The notes below the pieces were generated by a model that searched no databases, was not told the DNA's origin, and saw nothing but the letters and a program-made list of their open reading frames with translations. Of a stretch of 64,000 bases of DNA, positions 56,544 to 64,000 are shown piece by piece. A program made the position numbers and the translations under genes. The DNA comes from Patescibacteria group bacterium (GTDB taxonomy: Bacteria; Patescibacteriota; Microgenomatia; UBA1400; PJMF01), in assembly GCA_041747555.1 (NCBI GenBank), contig JBGTEY010000011.1, forward strand, positions 118,274 to 182,273. Reading direction: 5' to 3'. Positions within the stretch are counted from its first letter, which is position 1. Every line of letters starts with the position of its first letter.

Positions 56544-57485
56544 CTAATCAAGAGTGCTCGGGAGCGTAATGGTCTTACCATCAGTCACAATCTCGATCAC
56601 ACCAGAAGTGTCGGTTCGCAAAATCAGCGCACCCACTTCTTCCAGTCGAGAGATCACCCCTGGTGAAGGGTGGCCAAATGTATTGTTTTTCCCCGAGTTG
56701 ATCACAGAGACTTCGGGTCGCAAATTACCTAAAAAATCAGGGTAAGAACTCGTATTTGACCCGTGGTGCCCGACTTTTAGCACGTCCACGTCCTCTATCA
56801 AACCACTCACAATGACTGCTTCTTCCCCTGCTTTCTCGAGGTCTCCCACAAGTGCGATTGACACTTGATCAAATGTGACAATTAGGCTGATAGATAGGTC
56901 ATTATGATCACTTTCATTAGGTAGCAAAGAGGCAAATATATCCGATAATGTTGTTTCGGATCGTCCAAAAATGGTGCTTTTTTGTGTGTCAGGAGCAAAA
57001 TGAGGCCAGATCACACGACCCATAATTTCATCACCAATTTGCAGCGACTGTCCACGCGCACCAATAACTACTGTTGCTCCATTATCGGCCTCAGTCTGGA
57101 CGGCGTGCTCAAATGCCGCAAAATCGCTCGTTTCTTTTCTTGCTATGGGAATGTATATCAATTCTGTCGTGTAACGAGCAAAAACAGCCTCCATCCCACC
57201 AATGTGATCAGCGTCAGCGTGGGTCGCAACTACAAATTCGATCACTCTGTCCCAAAACGGCATGTACTTGCTCAAACAAGAGACAACACTATCATCAGGG
57301 CCGGCATCAATTAATAATTGTGTCGAACCACGCGATAGCAAGATCGCATCACCCTGCCCAACATCACAAAAAACGATGTGAAGCTTTTCATCGGGTTTCT
57401 GATTATGAATTGCTACAACAATAGCGACACCCATCACTGCCAAAGCTGCCAACATACTTCGTAGGTGACGACTAATCCAAAACAC
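56544..57485 (-). CDS. comEC: ComEC C-terminal part: TM helix + metallo-beta-lactamase domain (split/frameshifted comEC)
   Basis: GTG start; VVATHADADHIGG MBL motif, DVGQGDA; overlaps upstream ORF by 14 nt in +1 frame. Confidence 0.75.
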   Translation of the reverse strand: MFWISRHLRSMLAALAVMGVAIVVAIHNQKPDEKLHIVFCDVGQGDAILLSRGSTQLLIDAGPDDSVVSCLSKYMPFWDRVIEFVVATHADADHIGGMEAVFARYTTELIYIPIARKETSDFAAFEHAVQTEADNGATVVIGARGQSLQIGDEIMGRVIWPHFAPDTQKSTIFGRSETTLSDIFASLLPNESDHNDLSISLIVTFDQVSIALVGDLEKAGEEAVIVSGLIEDVDVLKVGHHGSNTSSYPDFLGNLRPEVSVINSGKNNTFGHPSPGVISRLEEVGALILRTDTSGVIEIVTDGKTITLPSTLD

Positions 57486-58809
57486 TTTGAAACTTTCTCT
57501 TCTGTCGCGCTCGCGTGTGATAGATGAAAATTGAAATCACAAGAAAAAGATAGTACAGTATTGAGTAGATAATATCATTTTTTGCGCTTTGTATCGCTGT
57601 TTTTTCAAGTATAGATAACGAATCAGCTAACCAAAGAAAAACATTCGACACTACTGAAATTGGTTGACCAATCGCGAAATACACCCAGTTTGAAGCACTC
57701 AGAAGCCATGCAATTATTAGCCCTGTAGTCGTTACTAGTGACATAACAATGATAATTGGTACAAATAAGAAGAGAACAATACCCGAAATACTGCTGAGTG
57801 GGTGAAATTCCTGAAAATACTGCAGCAATAAGGGAAAAACAGCCAGCTGAGCCGCTGTAGACACCAGAAATGACTCAACAAATACTGCACCATGACCTGA
57901 TCCTAGTGCAGCTAATAAACTACCTTTTTCACGCATCTTACTCGAGAAAATAGGGTAAAAAAAGAGTACGCCAGCTGTGCCTGCAAACGACAAATGGAGT
58001 GACACGCTGGTTACCAAATAGGGATTAGCAAGCAATAGTATCCATGTTGTGAGGAATAAGGCTGTTTTTGAATGATACTGCCGCCTGTACCAGGCAGAAA
58101 ACAGATAAAAAACTATCATTATAAATGCGCGCAATGCTGGAATTCTCCACCCCGCTACCAGGCAGTATATGAATAAAAGACCAATTAGCAAGAAAATGCT
58201 GGTCTTAGATCGACTATGCGAGAACTGTGCGTCAATCACTCCAAAAATAATCCCAAAATGCAATCCAGACACGGAACTAATATGCTGCATCCCAATAGCG
58301 GCTATAATCGGATCTGCAAACGACCGACCTGTTGGAACTTTGCCAAAAGTCAGCTGCCAAACTAGGCTCAAATATGGTTCCTCAAGTGACGTCTGCAGCA
58401 ATTCGAAAAGCCAGACTCTAGCCTTGATACTGTTTGAGTATGTTTGATAAATCCAACCTTTTACCGAATTCAAATCTGGTGAAAAAGCGTAAAAACTCTC
58501 TAATTTCAACCTTTTTTTAATTAATAAATAGCTATCAAAGACTGCTGCTGGAGTGCTATCGGGCATATCTAGTGTGCCCGTCAGATGCAGCACCGAACCA
58601 ACTTCAAACTGCCCACAGTCTGGGAGGGAGAAGTAAAACCTGCTGGTTTGGTACCAACACGTGTCAGAAACGGAATCGATCACAAAATCTAGACTTATAT
58701 TTCTTGCAAGATTATCTCTATGGTATATATGTAATACACGCAAAAATAGCGTGAGTATTACTAGTACAATTAAATACAATTGATATCTTTGTGTTTTATT
58801 TTTCGTCAT
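57472..58809 (-). CDS. comEC: ComEC N-terminal part: DUF4131 + competence (membrane channel) domain
   Basis: Polytopic membrane protein with ISSVSGLHFGII competence-domain signature. Confidence 0.75.
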   Translation of the reverse strand: MTKNKTQRYQLYLIVLVILTLFLRVLHIYHRDNLARNISLDFVIDSVSDTCWYQTSRFYFSLPDCGQFEVGSVLHLTGTLDMPDSTPAAVFDSYLLIKKRLKLESFYAFSPDLNSVKGWIYQTYSNSIKARVWLFELLQTSLEEPYLSLVWQLTFGKVPTGRSFADPIIAAIGMQHISSVSGLHFGIIFGVIDAQFSHSRSKTSIFLLIGLLFIYCLVAGWRIPALRAFIMIVFYLFSAWYRRQYHSKTALFLTTWILLLANPYLVTSVSLHLSFAGTAGVLFFYPIFSSKMREKGSLLAALGSGHGAVFVESFLVSTAAQLAVFPLLLQYFQEFHPLSSISGIVLFLFVPIIIVMSLVTTTGLIIAWLLSASNWVYFAIGQPISVVSNVFLWLADSLSILEKTAIQSAKNDIIYSILYYLFLVISIFIYHTRARQKRKFQSVLD

Positions 58810-58959: not shown

Positions 58960-59577
58960 CTAAAAACTAATTAAATCCTTAATATCAGCGATAATCTTAT
59001 CGGATAAACCACCTTTTTCTTTTAATTCTTCAAGCGTCTGATAGGGGCGCTGGTCAATCAAGTCACTCGCTCTTTTCTCTCCTATGCCTGGTAGAGTCTG
59101 AAGCTTTGCCTGACTTGCGGTATTTATAGGGATCAAATCCTGGGTTTTGGATGTAGTGCTTACCCCTTCATCCTTGGTTTCTGCTGGTGCTGTGCTCAAT
59201 GTCTCGAGTAATGGCGGAATATAGACCTTCTGACCGTCTGCAAGTGTGGATGCGCCATTTAATTGCTTGGCAACATACCCTACATCTGCTGCCGAGGTGA
59301 CACCTCCTGCAGCAGAAATTGCTTGACTGAGTCTTGAGAGAGCTGGCAGCTTATACACACCCGGCTTATATACCGCCCCACCGACATCGACAGCAATTTC
59401 ATAATGATGATCAATAGCCTTATTTTGAGAAACGTGCTCCTGACTCTCGTTTGCTCCCCTATATAGTTCAGAAACGCCATACAAAATTGCCCCCATGCCA
59501 AGAATACTCAACAAGAGGGAGAACGCAATTATTTTTTTTGGGATGGAATGGTGATTTTTATTGGTTTGGTTCATCAA
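58960..59577 (-). CDS. comEA: competence protein ComEA (SLBB + helix-hairpin-helix DNA-binding)
   Basis: N-terminal TM, VDVGGAVYKPGVYKLP SLBB-like, C-terminal LQTLPGIGEKRASDLI HhH motif. Confidence 0.8.
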   Translation of the reverse strand: MMNQTNKNHHSIPKKIIAFSLLLSILGMGAILYGVSELYRGANESQEHVSQNKAIDHHYEIAVDVGGAVYKPGVYKLPALSRLSQAISAAGGVTSAADVGYVAKQLNGASTLADGQKVYIPPLLETLSTAPAETKDEGVSTTSKTQDLIPINTASQAKLQTLPGIGEKRASDLIDQRPYQTLEELKEKGGLSDKIIADIKDLISF

Positions 59578-59659: not shown

Positions 59660-62600
59660 TTAAGGGGTTGGGGATGGCGAGCTCTGACCCTGATTCAATG
59701 GGGTTGGTACTGGAGACGGCGTAGCTGAACCCCCACTTGAGGGACTTGGTGTTGGAGATGGTTGCGGCGATGCTTCTGGAGATGGGGATGGACTTGGTTC
59801 AACTGATCCGGCGCCTTCAGCACCTTCGCTTGTCTCATCAGTTTCGCCTGCTTCATCTTGATCACCTGCAACTTCACCAGACTCTTCTGGGTCATTGTTT
59901 TCTTCTGGTTGTGGACTCTGACTTGGCTGTGGTGATCCGCCTTCACTCTCGAGAACTTCTACTAAAGCGGCTTCACCACTCGTTGTGAGCACTGCTAACC
60001 AGTTAATTTCAATATCTTGTGCCTGCGCTTGAGTAAGTCTAATGATAAATGATCCAACTTCAACAGATTCTAGGTGGTAACCACCATTGATTGTGCCTCG
60101 AGAACTGAGGTATACAGTTGGGGCGTCCGCATATGCCTTGGCGAAGGTTACTCTCACTTTGGTAGTTCCTGCTGGAATCACCACACTACCTGCTGTATCT
60201 TTATTGACTCGAATACTACCTCTGATGGTGACGTCTGCCAAGAACTCGACACCGCTCTTGAAGACTGCTCGAGTATTAAATACGACCTCTTTGAGGAATG
60301 TCCAGGCAGTGGCTGTTATTGTCGTATGATTATTCAGGTTTGCATTGATTGCCTGGACTTGTGTGTCGATCGCTGCCAATTGAGTCACCGCAAGTTCAGC
60401 TTGTGTTGCCGCATCCTGTGCCAATTGCTGATCAATATTAGATACTCTACCCTGACTATCAAATTGTACTCGATCAGAAAATGTTTTAAATTGTTCATTC
60501 TGCTCTTGCACCGCCCTCACAATCATAGGTGTGACCTTACCGTAATCAACTTTCCAGTGTTCATTTGGATTGTCAAAATAGGCCGTGACCGCGTCTGGGT
60601 ATATTTCATACAACTGTTGAGCAATAAATCCAGTGTGCATTTTGCTTGATCCATCAGCTTTAAAGCTGTAATCCATAACTTGCACCTGGAGCAATTCCTC
60701 AAGACCTTTGCTGCCCATTGAAAAATTTTCCTTTAAACGTAGATCAGAAGAGGTGTTGTATGAAGTCGTACTACTCCCAAACGTGATTGAGCCGACACTT
60801 GTCCCATTGCCATCGTTAAATTGTACGAGTGTTGAGGGGCCTGCAGCTGTATGATCGTCCAATCCAGCTTGAATGGAGATGCCCGATCTATTAGTAGCAT
60901 TCCCATCATTGAAAAATTCTGCAGCATAATCAGTTAAGTTGGCTGAAACTTGAAGTTGACCATTCGTTGCCAAAGTTCCAGAACCCAAAAAGTTAAAATT
61001 TTGATTTAAACTAACATTTCCAAAGTGAAGCGCTTCAGAACCATCGGTTGTCGTAAAGATCATGTACCGACTACCAGATTGAGCAAACTGCAGTGCTGCG
61101 GATTGATTATCTGGAAATCTGATTGTTGTTGCTGAATTTAAATTTATATCACTACCACCTACAACCAAGTCATTCACACGTACATCGCTCTCAAAATATC
61201 CTCCATAATCCCAGTTTGCGCCCTCTTGGTAAATTGCATATTGCGTGCCTGAGACCCCGTTGGTGTCTGTGGCTGGATCATTAATGCGAATTCCATATAG
61301 AGAGTTACCAGTTGATGCAGTGAAATTTGTAAAATCAAGATCAATCAATGTGGTGCTTCCCGTAGAAGTTGTCCCTGTCCCCCAATCTACATTTATAAGC
61401 TCACCAGACGTCCAGCTGGTATTAAGTGCATAATCGGTAAATGTACCAATTGTCCCTGGCGTAATTGTTGTTAACCCTGATAAGGTCAATGTTGTGGAAT
61501 CAACCCCAGCATTTGCATCTAGATTTCCTGTAAATGTCACCTGACCTGATCCTGCTTGTGTAAGTGCTCCAGTGTTAGTGAATGTGAAAAATGGAGTGCC
61601 GTTGTCGGCAATGATGAAGTCGCCTGTGGTTGTGAGATTATATGTTAATCCTGTAGCATTATCGATTTCCATGGTTAAATTAGCCTCAGTGATTGATTGT
61701 GCATACACATCATCAAATGTGGGTGTGCCCGCTACAGTATCTACATACGCTTTAATGCTCTGCTGTGTGGCAAGGGCTGTAGCAGAGTTTGAGACGAGGT
61801 CGTCTTCATCGAGAATTGAACTGACGGCTGTTGAGGCTCCGAGTTGAAGTGAGCCATTGACGAGCAATGCTCCATTTGAGAATGAGAGTAGGTCAGTGTC
61901 TGTGGTAAGCCCAAGAGTCGTGCCATCCAAAAGCAAACTATCTACTGTCCAGCTCGTAAAACCAGTTCCCACACCAGAAGCGTTAATATCCCAACCAGAA
62001 GAGTTTATTGCAATTGCATCTCCGCCATCTCCCAGAGTTACCGTGCCATTTGCGACCAGTGAGCCATTTGCTGTAAGCGTGCTAGCAAAAGTACCCGCAC
62101 CAGCCGTGGTAATTGTTGCATTTCCACCCACGGTGAGTGATGATCCTGTGACATCGAGGCCGCTTGTTACATCCACATTGCCGGTGAGGGTTACTTGACC
62201 AGCTCCAGCTTGAGTAAGTGCTCCAGTGTCAGTGAATGTGAAAAATGGCGTGCCGTTATCTGCAATGATGAAGTCGCCGGTTGTTGTTAGGTCAAAGGTC
62301 AACCCACCCGCATTATCAATTTCCATGTTGAGATCAGCTTCAGTAATAGATTCGGCATACACTTGATCAAATGTTGGAGTTGAGGTGCTTATTTGATTAT
62401 CAACATAGGCCTTTATGCTCTGCTGTGTCGCCAACGCTGTTGCTGAATTTGAAGTGAAGCTATCTTCATCAAGAATTGAACTAACCGTTCCTCCAGAAGT
62501 AAGAGTGAGCGTGGAAGCAGTAATATCTCCTTCAACCGATAAGTTAGCTTGGTATGTTGAATTTGAATTAATAATGGTGTACGTACTATCCGCACCAGCA

Positions 62601-64000
62601 TCAAGCAGGTTCCAATAGACAGAGTTGTCTCCAGAAATCGCGCCAGAGCTCACAATTTCGAGGCGATCATCGGTGCTCTCATCATAAAGGACACTCCAGT
62701 TTGCATCATTTCCAAAAGCAAATCCTACGTTATCCTGCACTTCCCAAGCTCCAGAAATAGCCTGTGCATCTGAGTCAAAAATTAACGCCTCTATTGTATT
62801 CTCGGTCGTCGCATCTGTAGATGCTAAACCGTTTAATGCTCCTCCTGTAAGCGAAGTAGTGCCGTCAGTGAGGGTACCGCCAGTGATGATACTTGAAGCG
62901 TTCAGGGTTGTTACGTCAGAAATTGCTCCTGCATTTATATCAATTCCGTTGATCGTTTCATCTGTATGAGCGGTAATTACACCGCCAGTTGAAAATGAGT
63001 AACTCCCGCCAACAGTCAAGTTTGCATTGGTAACATCAAGTCCATTGCTCGCATCTACATTGCCTGAGAGCGTTACCTGACCTGCTCCTGCCTGCGTGAG
63101 TGCGCCACCATCGGTGAAGGTAAAGAAGGTAGTGCCGTTGTCGGCAATGACGAAATCACCAGTGCTGGTCAAGTCTACAACCAGGTTGCCAGTTAGTGCA
63201 TTAGTTATTGTCGTTGCTGCGTCAAGTGTTAGGGCATCTGCGAGTTCAGTAAAATTCAAAGAGTCTGCAATGACATTGTAGGTAAGTGTGTCAGTTGCAG
63301 AAACGGTTGCGTTAATAGTTGATGAATCTGCGGCGCTGAGAGTATTGGTTGAGCTGATAGTTTGTGAGGTGACGCCGTCAGAAATTACCCAGTTTGAATA
63401 TCCGCCGGCTCCAGCATCAGCATCAATCCATGCTAAGACTCCAGCCGAGTTTGTAGATAAAATTTGATTTGCGCTCCCATCGGCAACGGGAAGTGTATAA
63501 ATAACGTCTCCTGCGAGTGTATCTGGAGCTTTAAATCCAGTATAGTTGTCTCCCCCAGCCTCAAGCTCCTGGAAACGAATTTCACCAGTATTACCAGCGG
63601 CAATACCAAATGGATTAATGTTAAATGCTGACGCAGACACGTCAAAGTAAAATGGTGAGTCGCTCGTGGTATTACCAACAGCAAGGTCGTCTGAGGTGGC
63701 AGTTAAGTAGGTAATTGCACCATTATCTGTCCATTTTGAAGAACCAGAACCACCAGAAGTTACCCAGCCGCAAGTTGGTTGTGTAGGATCACAGAGGAGA
63801 TCGTTACCCCAATACAAACTATCGCCCGCTTCTCCTGCTGCAGCTGCGCCATACGAAAGTACATTGTCTGGATCTGCGTCATTGTTGAGACCAAGGGTGG
63901 TGCCTTGCACCGCAACTGCCCCCGAGAATGTAGTGAGCGCTGCATTAATATCGATATCATCGCTGGCAAAATCGATGCTTGGATCCGTTACTCCGACATC
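59660..64000 (-). CDS. giant repetitive surface/fibre protein with Peptidase-S74-like intramolecular chaperone domain; 5' end beyond window
   Basis: >1440 aa; Thr/Gly/Asn-rich beta-rich repeats (three copies of TTTGDFIIADNGTPFFTFT...QAGAGQVTLTGNVD), SDLRLKENF...GFIAQQLYEIYPDAV S74-type motif, Pro/Ser/Glu-rich C-terminal tail; frame remains open to nt 64000. Confidence 0.7.
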   Translation of the reverse strand, partial: DVGVTDPSIDFASDDIDINAALTTFSGAVAVQGTTLGLNNDADPDNVLSYGAAAAGEAGDSLYWGNDLLCDPTQPTCGWVTSGGSGSSKWTDNGAITYLTATSDDLAVGNTTSDSPFYFDVSASAFNINPFGIAAGNTGEIRFQELEAGGDNYTGFKAPDTLAGDVIYTLPVADGSANQILSTNSAGVLAWIDADAGAGGYSNWVISDGVTSQTISSTNTLSAADSSTINATVSATDTLTYNVIADSLNFTELADALTLDAATTITNALTGNLVVDLTSTGDFVIADNGTTFFTFTDGGALTQAGAGQVTLSGNVDASNGLDVTNANLTVGGSYSFSTGGVITAHTDETINGIDINAGAISDVTTLNASSIITGGTLTDGTTSLTGGALNGLASTDATTENTIEALIFDSDAQAISGAWEVQDNVGFAFGNDANWSVLYDESTDDRLEIVSSGAISGDNSVYWNLLDAGADSTYTIINSNSTYQANLSVEGDITASTLTLTSGGTVSSILDEDSFTSNSATALATQQSIKAYVDNQISTSTPTFDQVYAESITEADLNMEIDNAGGLTFDLTTTGDFIIADNGTPFFTFTDTGALTQAGAGQVTLTGNVDVTSGLDVTGSSLTVGGNATITTAGAGTFASTLTANGSLVANGTVTLGDGGDAIAINSSGWDINASGVGTGFTSWTVDSLLLDGTTLGLTTDTDLLSFSNGALLVNGSLQLGASTAVSSILDEDDLVSNSATALATQQSIKAYVDTVAGTPTFDDVYAQSITEANLTMEIDNATGLTYNLTTTGDFIIADNGTPFFTFTNTGALTQAGSGQVTFTGNLDANAGVDSTTLTLSGLTTITPGTIGTFTDYALNTSWTSGELINVDWGTGTTSTGSTTLIDLDFTNFTASTGNSLYGIRINDPATDTNGVSGTQYAIYQEGANWDYGGYFESDVRVNDLVVGGSDINLNSATTIRFPDNQSAALQFAQSGSRYMIFTTTDGSEALHFGNVSLNQNFNFLGSGTLATNGQLQVSANLTDYAAEFFNDGNATNRSGISIQAGLDDHTAAGPSTLVQFNDGNGTSVGSITFGSSTTSYNTSSDLRLKENFSMGSKGLEELLQVQVMDYSFKADGSSKMHTGFIAQQLYEIYPDAVTAYFDNPNEHWKVDYGKVTPMIVRAVQEQNEQFKTFSDRVQFDSQGRVSNIDQQLAQDAATQAELAVTQLAAIDTQVQAINANLNNHTTITATAWTFLKEVVFNTRAVFKSGVEFLADVTIRGSIRVNKDTAGSVVIPAGTTKVRVTFAKAYADAPTVYLSSRGTINGGYHLESVEVGSFIIRLTQAQAQDIEINWLAVLTTSGEAALVEVLESEGGSPQPSQSPQPEENNDPEESGEVAGDQDEAGETDETSEGAEGAGSVEPSPSPSPEASPQPSPTPSPSSGGSATPSPVPTPLNQGQSSPSPTP

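What the first reader, a model, noticed from the sequence alone, without database searches (positions are those of the whole stretch)
59660..64000. Giant repetitive fibre protein with a phage-tailspike-type intramolecular chaperone domain and long acidic Pro/Ser tail
The ORF is more than 1440 aa and still open at the window edge. It contains three ~213-aa repeats that are ~85% identical at DNA level (about 61540-63200). Its SDLRLKENF...GFIAQQLYEIYPDAV segment matches the Peptidase S74 auto-processing chaperone domain of phage endosialidases and tail fibres. Unusually, that domain is followed by ~330 more residues, including an acidic PSPSP-rich tail. It sits directly upstream of comEA-comEC. 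It is probably a cell-surface fibre or adhesin, or a domesticated phage tail-fibre-like protein.
Basis: partly seen in the sequence, partly recalled or inferred. Interest (0 to 1): 0.6.

Follow-up and report, generated by a model that had tools for sequence, protein, structure and literature searches.

The report
Self-cleaving surface fibre of a Patescibacterium
This is a real, very large chromosomal gene of an ultrasmall (Patescibacteria/CPR) bacterium. It most likely encodes a cell-surface fibre built with the self-cleaving folding domain used by phage tail fibres, followed by a previously undescribed lectin-like end module, which makes it a plausible host-attachment organelle rather than a phage remnant.

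Summary
The ORF (minus strand, stop at 59660) has 1445 codons and is still open at the window edge. A Peptidase_S74 intramolecular-chaperone domain is confirmed by four results:
- Pfam scores 43.8 bits against a cut-off of 22.
- A family profile hits solved phage and MyRF chaperone domains.
- An AlphaFold model (pLDDT 88.5) matches those same structures.
- The Ser1084/Lys1089 dyad is invariant in 36 relatives.

The gene is not in a prophage. The order ATP synthase, giant S74 gene(s), comEA, split comEC, argS, M16, ndk is conserved in three other Patescibacteria loci. The orthologues there share only the C-terminal ~385 aa with this protein and carry N-terminal membrane anchors.

The repeats are real but were overstated: DNA identity is 74-77% over 114-319 nt cores, not 85% over 213 aa.

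Best reading: an exported trimeric surface fibre with a self-cleaving assembly module. This is a new variant of a known kind. Function is inferred.

The parts
59660..64000 (-). 3' part (1445 codons plus TAA stop) of a giant fibre gene. The N-terminus lies beyond the window edge.
   Evidence: Third-codon bias of repeat mismatches shows it is coding.
63419..63631 (-). Shaft module of about 70 aa (aa 123-193, GEIRFQELE..YTLPVADGSANQILSTNSAGVLAW). It is the element most widely shared with other Patescibacteria giant proteins and occurs up to 5 times in P0001.
62738..63397 (-). Repeat unit R1 (aa 201-420)
   Evidence: 37-38% aa identity to R2 and R3. Core DLTSTGDFVIADNGT..FFTFT..GALTQAG.GQVT.
61841..62512 (-). 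Repeat unit R2 (aa 496-719). It includes the phage tail-fibre-type motif SSILDED..SNSATALATQQSIKAYVD (aa 506-533, window 62399-62482).
   Evidence: phrog_24210 (E 6e-9) and phrog_1197 (E 1e-8), tail-fibre and tail-protein families, two stretches each.
61217..61852 (-). Repeat unit R3 (aa 716-927). It includes the second copy of the tail-fibre motif (aa 726-753, window 61739-61822).
   Evidence: 53% aa and 76% DNA identity to R2 (DNA figure over 319 nt).
60749..60988 (-). Conserved pre-chaperone segment (aa 1004-1083). It marks the start of the C-terminal block shared with the syntenic orthologues, and by analogy it would be the distal tip of the mature fibre after cleavage.
   Evidence: 46% and 43% identity to P0025 and P0063 from aa 1004. 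phrog_1980 tail fibre covers aa 964-1171.
60470..60748 (-). Peptidase_S74 intramolecular chaperone / auto-processing domain (aa 1084-1176). The predicted scissile bond is Ser1083|Ser1084. Catalytic Ser1084 is at 60746-60748 and Lys1089 at 60731-60733.
   Evidence: Cleavage position by analogy with MyRF P586|S587 (PMC8326128).
60326..60436 (-). Long helix predicted in the monomer model (aa 1188-1224), read as a coiled-coil-like stalk after the chaperone domain
   Evidence: AlphaFold model helix 129-165, pLDDT 81-94
59963..60265 (-). H-type-lectin-like beta-sandwich (aa ~1245-1345)
59663..59935 (-). Disordered tail (aa 1355-1445): an acidic half, then a Pro/Ser/Thr-rich half. There is no K or R, no LPXTG and no TM segment.
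   Evidence: Tails of the same type occur in 88 of 104 family members.
58960..59577 (-). comEA (SLBB + HHH_3), 82 nt downstream on the same strand. No terminator-like site lies between the two genes.
56544..58809 (-). comEC split into a Competence-domain ORF (57472-58809) and a metallo-beta-lactamase ORF (56544-57485). This is part of the conserved syntenic block, not part of the fibre.

Best explanation
The gene encodes a giant fibre protein of a Patescibacteria (CPR) bacterium. The protein is probably well over 2000 aa, and I infer that it is exported and homotrimeric. It is a vertically inherited chromosomal gene, not a virion component.

Proposed mechanism:
1. The chain is exported. An N-terminal hydrophobic anchor, seen in the syntenic orthologues, probably holds it in the membrane; in this protein that end lies outside the window.
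2. The C-terminal block nucleates trimerisation and folding of the Thr/Ser/Gly/Asp-rich shaft from the C-terminal end. This is how phage tail fibres and endosialidases fold.
3. The S74 domain then cuts the chain between Ser1083 and Ser1084 using the Ser1084/Lys1089 dyad.

Unlike phage S74 proteins, the piece beyond the cut carries three extra elements: a long helix (read as a coiled coil), an H-type-lectin-like beta-sandwich and an acidic Pro/Ser tail. Some relatives add a peptidoglycan-binding-type SH3 domain. I read this piece as a wall- or glycan-binding assembly cap that holds the C-termini together at the envelope while the trimer forms.

The mature fibre projects from the cell, and its modular, fast-diverging shaft is a candidate host-attachment element.

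Shown here: the domain identities, the conserved dyad, the fold matches, the recurrence of the module, the synteny and the non-phage context.

Inferred: export, trimer formation, actual cleavage, wall or glycan binding, and the adhesion role.
For: S74 domain:
- Pfam scores 43.8 bits against a cut-off of 22.
- The family profile hits solved chaperone domains 8jov, 6f45, MyRF 7dc3, T5 8hqz and GA-1 3gud, with the Ser and Lys aligned.
- Ser1084 and Lys1089 are invariant in 36 of 36 aligned relatives.

Extension:
- A phmmer search of aa 1165-1354 against 1.84 billion representatives gave 670 hits at E<=1e-3. All listed hits lie close to the C-terminus, mostly of proteins of 1000-5500 aa; the shorter entries may be fragments.
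- 76 of the top 150 have S74 directly upstream.
- Pfam H_lectin hits are weak but repeated: E 0.012 here, 0.0018 and 0.0058 in relatives.
- SH3_3 tails occur in relatives (E 2e-10).
- Tails of the same composition occur in 88 of 104 members.

Cellular, not phage:
- Downstream genes are comEA, comEC, argS, M16 and ndk.
- The same gene order is found in the BroJett025 Patescibacteria genome, in a Pacebacteria genome and in a third metagenomic contig of unnamed origin.
- No phage genes lie near other family members.
- tblastn of the extension finds nothing in 50,697 phage genomes, and S74 hits there cover only aa 1-118 of the query.
- BFVD fold hits also cover only the S74 third of the model.

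Surface fibre:
- 54 of 70 full-length members have an N-terminal hydrophobic segment, including the three syntenic orthologues.
- The protein has about 1% each of K and R and is rich in T, A, G, S and D.
- The shaft carries tail-fibre PHROG motifs.
- The published view is that very large Patescibacteria proteins are surface-targeted candidate host-interaction factors (PMC13059738).
Against: - The N-terminus is missing, so export of this particular protein is not shown.
- No multimer model was made, so trimerisation is inferred from family behaviour.
- If cleavage occurs, the lectin-like domain is severed from the fibre. That is hard to reconcile with a distal receptor-binding role for that domain.
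- The C-terminal module is the most conserved part of the protein. This fits an assembly role but says nothing about what the shaft binds.
- H_lectin is below Pfam's threshold, and sugar-binding residues were not examined.
- 35 of 89 long family members carry the extension without a detectable S74, so the two are not obligatorily coupled.
- Taxonomic names were available for only a few members.
Confidence: 0.55

Rival explanations
1. The polarity is reversed. The C-terminal lectin-like domain and tail (SH3 in relatives) form the cell-wall anchor, and S74 autocleavage is a release switch that sheds the fibre from the cell. This resembles MYRF, where cleavage frees the N-terminal part from an anchored C-terminal part.
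For: - Several relatives have N-terminal sequences that look like cleavable signal peptides, with AXA-type sites such as VHA|A and VQA|A.
- SH3_3 wall-binding-type domains sit at the extreme C-terminus in relatives.
- As in MyRF, the chaperone domain is internal rather than terminal.
Against: - The three syntenic orthologues have long uncleaved-looking hydrophobic anchors followed by basic residues.
- The window protein has no SH3, no LPXTG and no TM segment after the S74 domain.
- There is no evidence that the tail binds the wall.
Confidence: 0.2
2. The S74 domain serves only as a trimerisation chaperone and does not cut. The coiled coil and lectin-like trimer stay attached as the distal, glycan-binding tip of the fibre, like the foot of R-pyocin fibres.
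For: - The fold resembles receptor-binding lectin domains of R-pyocin fibres and tailspike C-terminal domains.
- The extension also occurs in 35 of 89 long proteins without a detectable S74. In those proteins it must remain attached.
Against: - The Ser/Lys dyad is invariant in 36 of 36 sequences. Both residues are required for cleavage in MyRF and endoNF (PMC8326128).
- A receptor-binding tip would be expected to vary between lineages. Here it is the most conserved region.
Confidence: 0.15
3. It is a phage or prophage tail-fibre or tailspike gene, either a virion component or a recent remnant.
For: - S74 and the SSILDED..QQSIKAYVD motifs are typical of phage tail fibres.
- 295 phage genomes carry similar S74 domains.
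Against: - The downstream flank is housekeeping genes.
- The same position between the ATP synthase operon and comEA is kept in three other diverged loci, where NDK is 76-80% and ArgRS 29-48% identical.
- The extension is absent from phage genomes and from viral structure predictions.
- Relatives have membrane anchors rather than virion-attachment domains.
Confidence: 0.04
4. The fibre is functionally coupled to the DNA-uptake machinery. It would be co-transcribed with comEA and comEC and would help capture DNA or dock to a DNA donor.
For: - The genes share a strand, the gap is 82 nt, and no terminator-like site lies between them.
- The adjacency is conserved in four loci.
- Natural competence is important in cultivated Patescibacteria (PMC10633639).
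Against: - The conserved block also includes argS, an M16 peptidase gene and ndk, so the gene order is general synteny.
- Other family members are not next to comEA.
- No DNA-binding feature was found in the 1445 aa.
Confidence: 0.06

Closest known systems
Phage tail fibres and tailspikes with a C-terminal intramolecular chaperone (K1F endosialidase endoNF, T5 L-shaped tail fibre pb1, GA-1 neck appendage; Pfam PF13884, MEROPS S74)
   Same: - The S74 domain matches by profile and by fold, with the Ser-x4-Lys dyad.
- It sits at the end of a long repetitive fibre that carries tail-fibre motifs.
- Orthologues show the same overall pattern: conserved N-terminus, variable shaft, conserved chaperone.
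   Different: - The gene is chromosomal and syntenic across Patescibacteria, not in a phage.
- Relatives have membrane anchors rather than virion adaptors.
- The chaperone is not terminal. About 270 more residues follow (helix, lectin-like domain, tail), and these were not found in phage genomes.
MYRF (myelin regulatory factor) ICA domain
   Same: - It is a cellular, non-viral protein.
- The chaperone is internal and followed by further sequence.
- The same Ser/Lys dyad is present, and cleavage occurs N-terminal to the Ser.
   Different: - In MYRF the domain is followed by a transmembrane helix and cleavage frees a DNA-binding domain. Here no TM segment follows.
- What lies upstream here is an extracellular-type fibre.
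- Some relatives do carry N-terminal MerR-type HTH domains, but a TM segment separates them from the fibre.
H-type lectins (Helix pomatia agglutinin, discoidin C-terminal domain, SLL-2) and lectin-like foot domains of R-type pyocin fibres
   Same: - Core F..P..GF..W.A positions are conserved.
- These lectins also function as trimers on a three-fold axis (established knowledge).
   Different: - The Pfam H_lectin score is below threshold (16 bits against 24).
- Sugar-binding residues were not checked.
- The domain lies beyond a predicted self-cleavage site.
Giant surface proteins of Patescibacteria proposed as host-interaction adhesins
   Same: - The protein is very large.
- Relatives have signal or anchor sequences.
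- It is lineage-specific and fast-evolving (PMC13059738).
   Different: The published examples carry fibronectin III, adhesin-repeat, concanavalin or integrin domains. An S74-based fibre with this end module was not found in the searched literature.

Membership tests
Peptidase_S74 / intramolecular chaperone auto-processing domain (PF13884) | Profile match above the curated threshold over the whole domain | tested here: met
   43.8 bits (47.7 on the isolated segment) against a cut-off of 22, profile positions 1-58 of 58
Peptidase_S74 / intramolecular chaperone auto-processing domain (PF13884) | Catalytic Ser-Lys dyad spaced i, i+5 (endoNF S911/K916, MyRF S587/K592) | tested here: met
   Ser1084 and Lys1089 are invariant in 36 of 36 relatives. 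They align with the Ser and Lys of solved chaperone domains (PMC8326128).
Peptidase_S74 / intramolecular chaperone auto-processing domain (PF13884) | Fold of solved chaperone domains | tested here: met
   [not shown]
Peptidase_S74 / intramolecular chaperone auto-processing domain (PF13884) | Trimer-dependent autoproteolysis that releases the domain | not testable with these tools
   Needs expression of wild type against S1084A and K1089A, with mass spectrometry
Peptidase_S74 / intramolecular chaperone auto-processing domain (PF13884) | Domain sits at the extreme C-terminus (the classical phage arrangement) | tested here: not met
   307 residues follow the Pfam match. Relative P0001 has the classical terminal arrangement.
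Phage tail fibre / tailspike (virion component) | Encoded within a phage or prophage structural module | tested here: not met
   The downstream flank is comEA, comEC, argS, M16 and ndk. The locus is conserved in three other loci next to the ATP synthase operon. The upstream flank of this window is not available.
Phage tail fibre / tailspike (virion component) | N-terminal virion- or baseplate-attachment domain | not testable with these tools
   The N-terminus lies beyond the window, and the contig was not found in any collection. Syntenic orthologues start with hydrophobic anchors.
H-type lectin domain (PF09458) | Profile match above the curated threshold | tested here: not met
   16.1 bits against a cut-off of 24, E 0.012, although it covers profile positions 2-66 of 67. 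Relatives score 17-19 bits.
H-type lectin domain (PF09458) | Six-stranded beta-sandwich fold of HPA and discoidin | tested here: met
   [not shown]
H-type lectin domain (PF09458) | Carbohydrate-binding site at the protomer interface of a trimer | not tested
   No multimer model was made and no residue-level comparison was done
MYRF-type membrane-tethered factor | Transmembrane helix after the chaperone domain, so that cleavage frees the N-terminal part | tested here: not met
   The maximum 19-residue hydropathy in the 1445 aa is 1.25, so there is no TM-like segment
Sortase-anchored Gram-positive surface protein | C-terminal LPXTG motif, hydrophobic stretch and basic tail | tested here: not met
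   No LPXTG-like motif. The tail ends ...SSPSPTP with no hydrophobic or basic residues.

The most novel reading that the evidence does not exclude
Patescibacteria have kept, at a fixed chromosomal site, a phage-type self-cleaving fibre as a cellular host-recognition organelle, in effect a cellular tail fibre with a rapidly exchanging shaft. The newly defined C-terminal module (helix, H-lectin-like domain, tail, with or without SH3) would be a dedicated envelope-bound assembly or cleavage device.

In relatives the same fibre is wired through one membrane helix to cytoplasmic MerR-type HTH domains. The family could therefore include contact-sensing, membrane-tethered transcription factors. The N-terminus of the window protein is unknown and could be of this type. 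Co-transcription with comEA and comEC could couple host attachment to DNA uptake.
Probability: 0.15. Interest if true: 0.8.

Novelty: new variant of a known kind. Interest (0 to 1): 0.5.

Why it matters
How ultrasmall Patescibacteria recognise and hold on to their host cells is largely unknown beyond type IV pili. A conserved, syntenic giant fibre built on phage tail-fibre principles, with a variable shaft, is a concrete and testable candidate for that role.

The work also defines an uncharacterised C-terminal module with 670 representative hits that has no curated family. It extends the S74 chaperone from a terminal, disposable cap to an internal domain followed by a lectin-like unit. The only well-studied parallel for an internal S74 domain is eukaryotic MYRF.

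Tried and rejected
- **Completing the ORF.** Exact look-ups of ComEC and ComEA, a genome-contig scan (only distant Saccharibacteria shaft relatives) and an exact 40-mer scan of metagenome contigs all failed to find the source contig. The N-terminus stays unknown.
- **Tandem Repeats Finder.** It found nothing because the period exceeds 500 nt.
- **NCBIfam and PDB phmmer.** NCBIfam gave no family and a single-sequence PDB phmmer gave no hit.
- **Single-sequence AlphaFold.** The model of aa 993-1354 was useless (pLDDT 36). Rerunning with a 36-sequence alignment worked.
- **Word-indexed homology search of the extension.** It returned nothing. The exhaustive HMMER search was needed.
- **Profile search with alignment A1.** It was flooded by generic S74 proteins and said little about the extension.
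- **afdb50 fold library.** It was not available.
- **Cluster names.** Ten more family members carried no names, so taxonomic breadth is poorly sampled.
- **Diversity-generating retroelement.** Rejected, because repeat mismatches are third-codon biased and not adenine-specific.
- **Secreted beta-helix enzyme.** No catalytic domain was found at any threshold, but this cannot be excluded for the shaft.
- **Prophage origin.** Rejected on context and synteny.

Full report
**1. The observation**

On the minus strand an ORF ends with TAA at 59660-59662. It runs for 1445 sense codons to 63997 with no upstream stop, so it is open at the window edge.

The product is rich in Thr, Ala, Gly, Ser and Asp, has about 1% each of Lys and Arg, and has only two cysteines.

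Three copies of a module are present at aa ~201-420, ~496-719 and ~716-927.
- DNA identity is 74-77% over cores of 114-319 nt, with start-to-start spacings of 654 and 882 nt.
- Protein identity over whole units is 53% (R2/R3) and 37-38% (R1 against the others).
- Mismatches between copies fall mostly on third codon positions (19/28, 21/35, 29/38). This shows a real coding sequence with old duplications under purifying selection, and it argues against a diversity-generating retroelement.

The S74 claim holds. Pfam Peptidase_S74 matches aa 1084-1138 at 43.8 bits against a cut-off of 22. ComEA and a split ComEC follow on the same strand.

**2. The chaperone domain**

I aligned 36 sequences (alignment A1) spanning the S74 domain to the end of the folded C-terminal region. 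Ser1084 and Lys1089 are invariant in this alignment.

The profile of A1 hits the sequences of solved chaperone domains, with the Ser and Lys in register:
- a putative tail fibre (8jov)
- a long-tail-fibre distal subunit (6f45)
- MyRF (7dc3)
- the T5 L-shaped fibre (8hqz)
- the GA-1 neck appendage (3gud)

In MyRF the cut is N-terminal to the catalytic Ser (P586|S587), and both S587 and K592 are indispensable; they are equivalent to endoNF S911 and K916 (PMC8326128). By analogy the scissile bond here is Ser1083|Ser1084. Cleavage itself is inferred, not shown.

**3. What follows the chaperone**

The model shows these elements after the S74 domain:
- a long helix at aa 1188-1224
- a short beta segment
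- a compact beta-sandwich (aa ~1245-1345) with pLDDT 93-98

The sandwich matches H-type lectins and related domains:
- the foot of R-type pyocin fibres
- the C-terminal domains of several tailspikes

Pfam H_lectin matches end to end but below threshold (E 0.012 here; E 0.0018 and 0.0058 in relatives). I therefore call the domain H-type-lectin-like by fold and do not file it as a family member.

The last 91 residues are an acidic stretch followed by a Pro/Ser/Thr stretch. They contain no basic residue, no LPXTG and no hydrophobic segment.

**4. The extension is a recurrent module, not a one-off**

An exhaustive phmmer search with aa 1165-1354 against 1.84 billion cluster representatives gave 670 hits at E<=1e-3 and 80 at E<=1e-10. 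The listed matches lie close to the C-terminus, mostly of proteins of 1000-5500 aa; shorter entries in the list may be fragments.
- Of the 150 listed, 76 have an S74 domain directly upstream (54 of the 89 that are longer than 700 aa).
- Tails after the domain have a median length of 61 aa. In 88 of 104 cases they are Pro/Ser/Thr-rich or acidic.
- Some tails end in a bacterial SH3 domain (SH3_3, E 2e-10 in P0044).

In phages the picture differs:
- tblastn of aa 1060-1354 against 50,697 phage genomes hits 295 records, all through the S74 part only (query residues 1 to ~118-128).
- The extension alone finds nothing even at E 0.1.
- Foldseek against predicted viral structures aligns only about 100-130 columns, again the S74 third.

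**5. Genomic context**

The window's contig could not be found in any collection. Family members could be placed, however.

P0025 comes from a 1.17-Mb contig named 'Patescibacteria group bacterium' BroJett025. P0047 comes from 'Candidatus Pacebacteria' contigs of up to 1.19 Mb.

In these three loci (L004, L005, and L006/L007 as two copies of one) the gene order is:
- ATP synthase operon (divergent)
- one to three giant S74 genes
- comEA
- comEC Competence ORF
- metallo-beta-lactamase ORF
- argS
- M16 peptidase
- ndk

The window has the same order downstream of the giant gene. Collinear tblastn matches range from 24% (ComEC) to 80% (NDK) identity. So the gene sits at a fixed chromosomal position across deeply diverged genomes. 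No phage genes lie near it there, and none lie near non-syntenic members either.

The adjacency to comEA-comEC is real and conserved, but so is the adjacency of unrelated housekeeping genes. Other family members are not next to comEA. No terminator-like site separates the giant ORF from comEA, which allows co-transcription but does not show it.

**6. Pattern of conservation**

The window protein shares only its last ~385 aa with the syntenic orthologues, from aa 1004. Identity is 46% to P0025, 43% to P0063 and 30% to P0047.

Those three also share about 680-970 N-terminal residues with each other (48-64% identity) and differ in the middle. Their N-termini are long hydrophobic segments flanked by basic residues. 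Of 70 full-length family members, 54 have such a segment in the first 70 residues.

The window fragment therefore probably lacks several hundred N-terminal residues, including the anchor. This is an inference.

The first 1000 aa of the fragment instead resemble shaft modules scattered among giant proteins labelled Dojkabacteria, Buchananbacteria, Gottesmanbacteria, Patescibacteria and Saccharibacteria. They contain two copies of a motif (SSILDED..SNSATALATQQSIKAYVD) that matches phage tail-fibre PHROGs.

A conserved base, an exchangeable shaft and a conserved cleavable C-terminal chaperone is the organisation of phage tail fibres.

**7. Mechanism**

I commit to this reading:
1. The protein is exported and N-terminally anchored.
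2. It forms a trimeric fibre, and the C-terminal block nucleates its folding.
3. The S74 domain then cuts at Ser1083|Ser1084.

The severed piece carries the helix, the lectin-like sandwich and the tail (plus SH3 in relatives). It is best explained as an envelope-binding assembly cap. The shaft is the specificity-bearing, host-facing part. This fits the published notion that very large Patescibacteria proteins are surface-targeted candidates for host interaction (PMC13059738; adhesins are required for epibiotic growth, PMC10633639).

The main rivals keep the same parts but change the logic:
- The C-terminal module could be the wall anchor, with cleavage as a release switch.
- The domain could be catalytically silent, with the lectin-like trimer as the distal tip.

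The invariant dyad and the high conservation of the module speak against the second rival. Neither rival can be excluded without biochemistry.

**8. Comparison and novelty**

The S74 domain passes every membership test that can be run here, apart from its non-terminal position. The protein is not a phage tail fibre, because the context test fails.

I found no paper in the searchable library that links S74 or 'chaperone of endosialidase' to Patescibacteria, or H-type lectins to S74. NCBI labels some relatives 'tail fiber domain-containing protein' or 'hypothetical protein'.

I rate this a new variant of a known kind, of moderate interest. The parts are known, but three things appear undescribed: the architecture, its restriction to cells, and its fixed locus in an important, poorly understood lineage.

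Noticed in passing
Relatives P0002, P0003, P0004, P0009 and P0060, P0065, P0068, P0084; locus L009 8001-13172: Several giant fibre relatives begin with one or two MerR/excisionase-type HTH domains (Pfam MerR E 4e-20). A single TM-like segment follows at aa ~80-170, then collagen repeats, the fibre, S74 and the lectin-like module. This is a cytoplasmic DNA-binding domain tethered through the membrane to an extracellular fibre. The best shaft matches of the window protein are of this type, so its missing N-terminus could be too.
   Followed up: partly
window 56544-58809 (minus strand); L005 15860-18074; L006 18082-19930: ComEC is split into a Competence-domain ORF and a separate, overlapping metallo-beta-lactamase ORF. 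The same split is seen in the window and in the syntenic loci L005 and L006/L007, so it looks like a lineage feature rather than a sequencing frameshift.
   Followed up: partly
L004 4356-15949; L005 5314-14842; L008 227-12182: The locus holds one to three tandem giant S74 genes in relatives, each with the full S74-plus-extension module. In L004 one paralogue appears split into 1368-aa and 510-aa ORFs. The sequence beyond the window edge may therefore contain another such gene.
   Followed up: partly
Relatives P0044, P0054, P0079, P0068 (C-terminal ~60 aa): In some family members the disordered tail ends in a bacterial SH3 domain (SH3_3, E 2e-10 to 3e-5), a domain type that binds peptidoglycan in lysins. 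P0068 has a weak Peptidase_G2 IMC-domain hit where S74 would be.
   Followed up: partly
window 63770-63793 (minus strand; aa 69 and 76): The only two cysteines of the 1445 aa lie seven residues apart (LLCDPTQPTCGW) at the start of the widely shared shaft module. P0017 has a similar C-x8-C (PSCSPTDADCGV) near its N-terminus. This may be a disulfide-closed loop.
   Followed up: no
window 60074-60649 (plus strand): A 191-aa ORF lies antisense inside the fibre gene, over the S74 and extension region. It is most likely a by-product of the composition of the coding strand. It was not examined further.
   Followed up: no
L009 6513-7835: The HTH-bearing family member P0060 sits directly after a large serine recombinase gene (Resolvase/Recombinase domains). 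This hints that some copies of the fibre gene travel on mobile elements.
   Followed up: no
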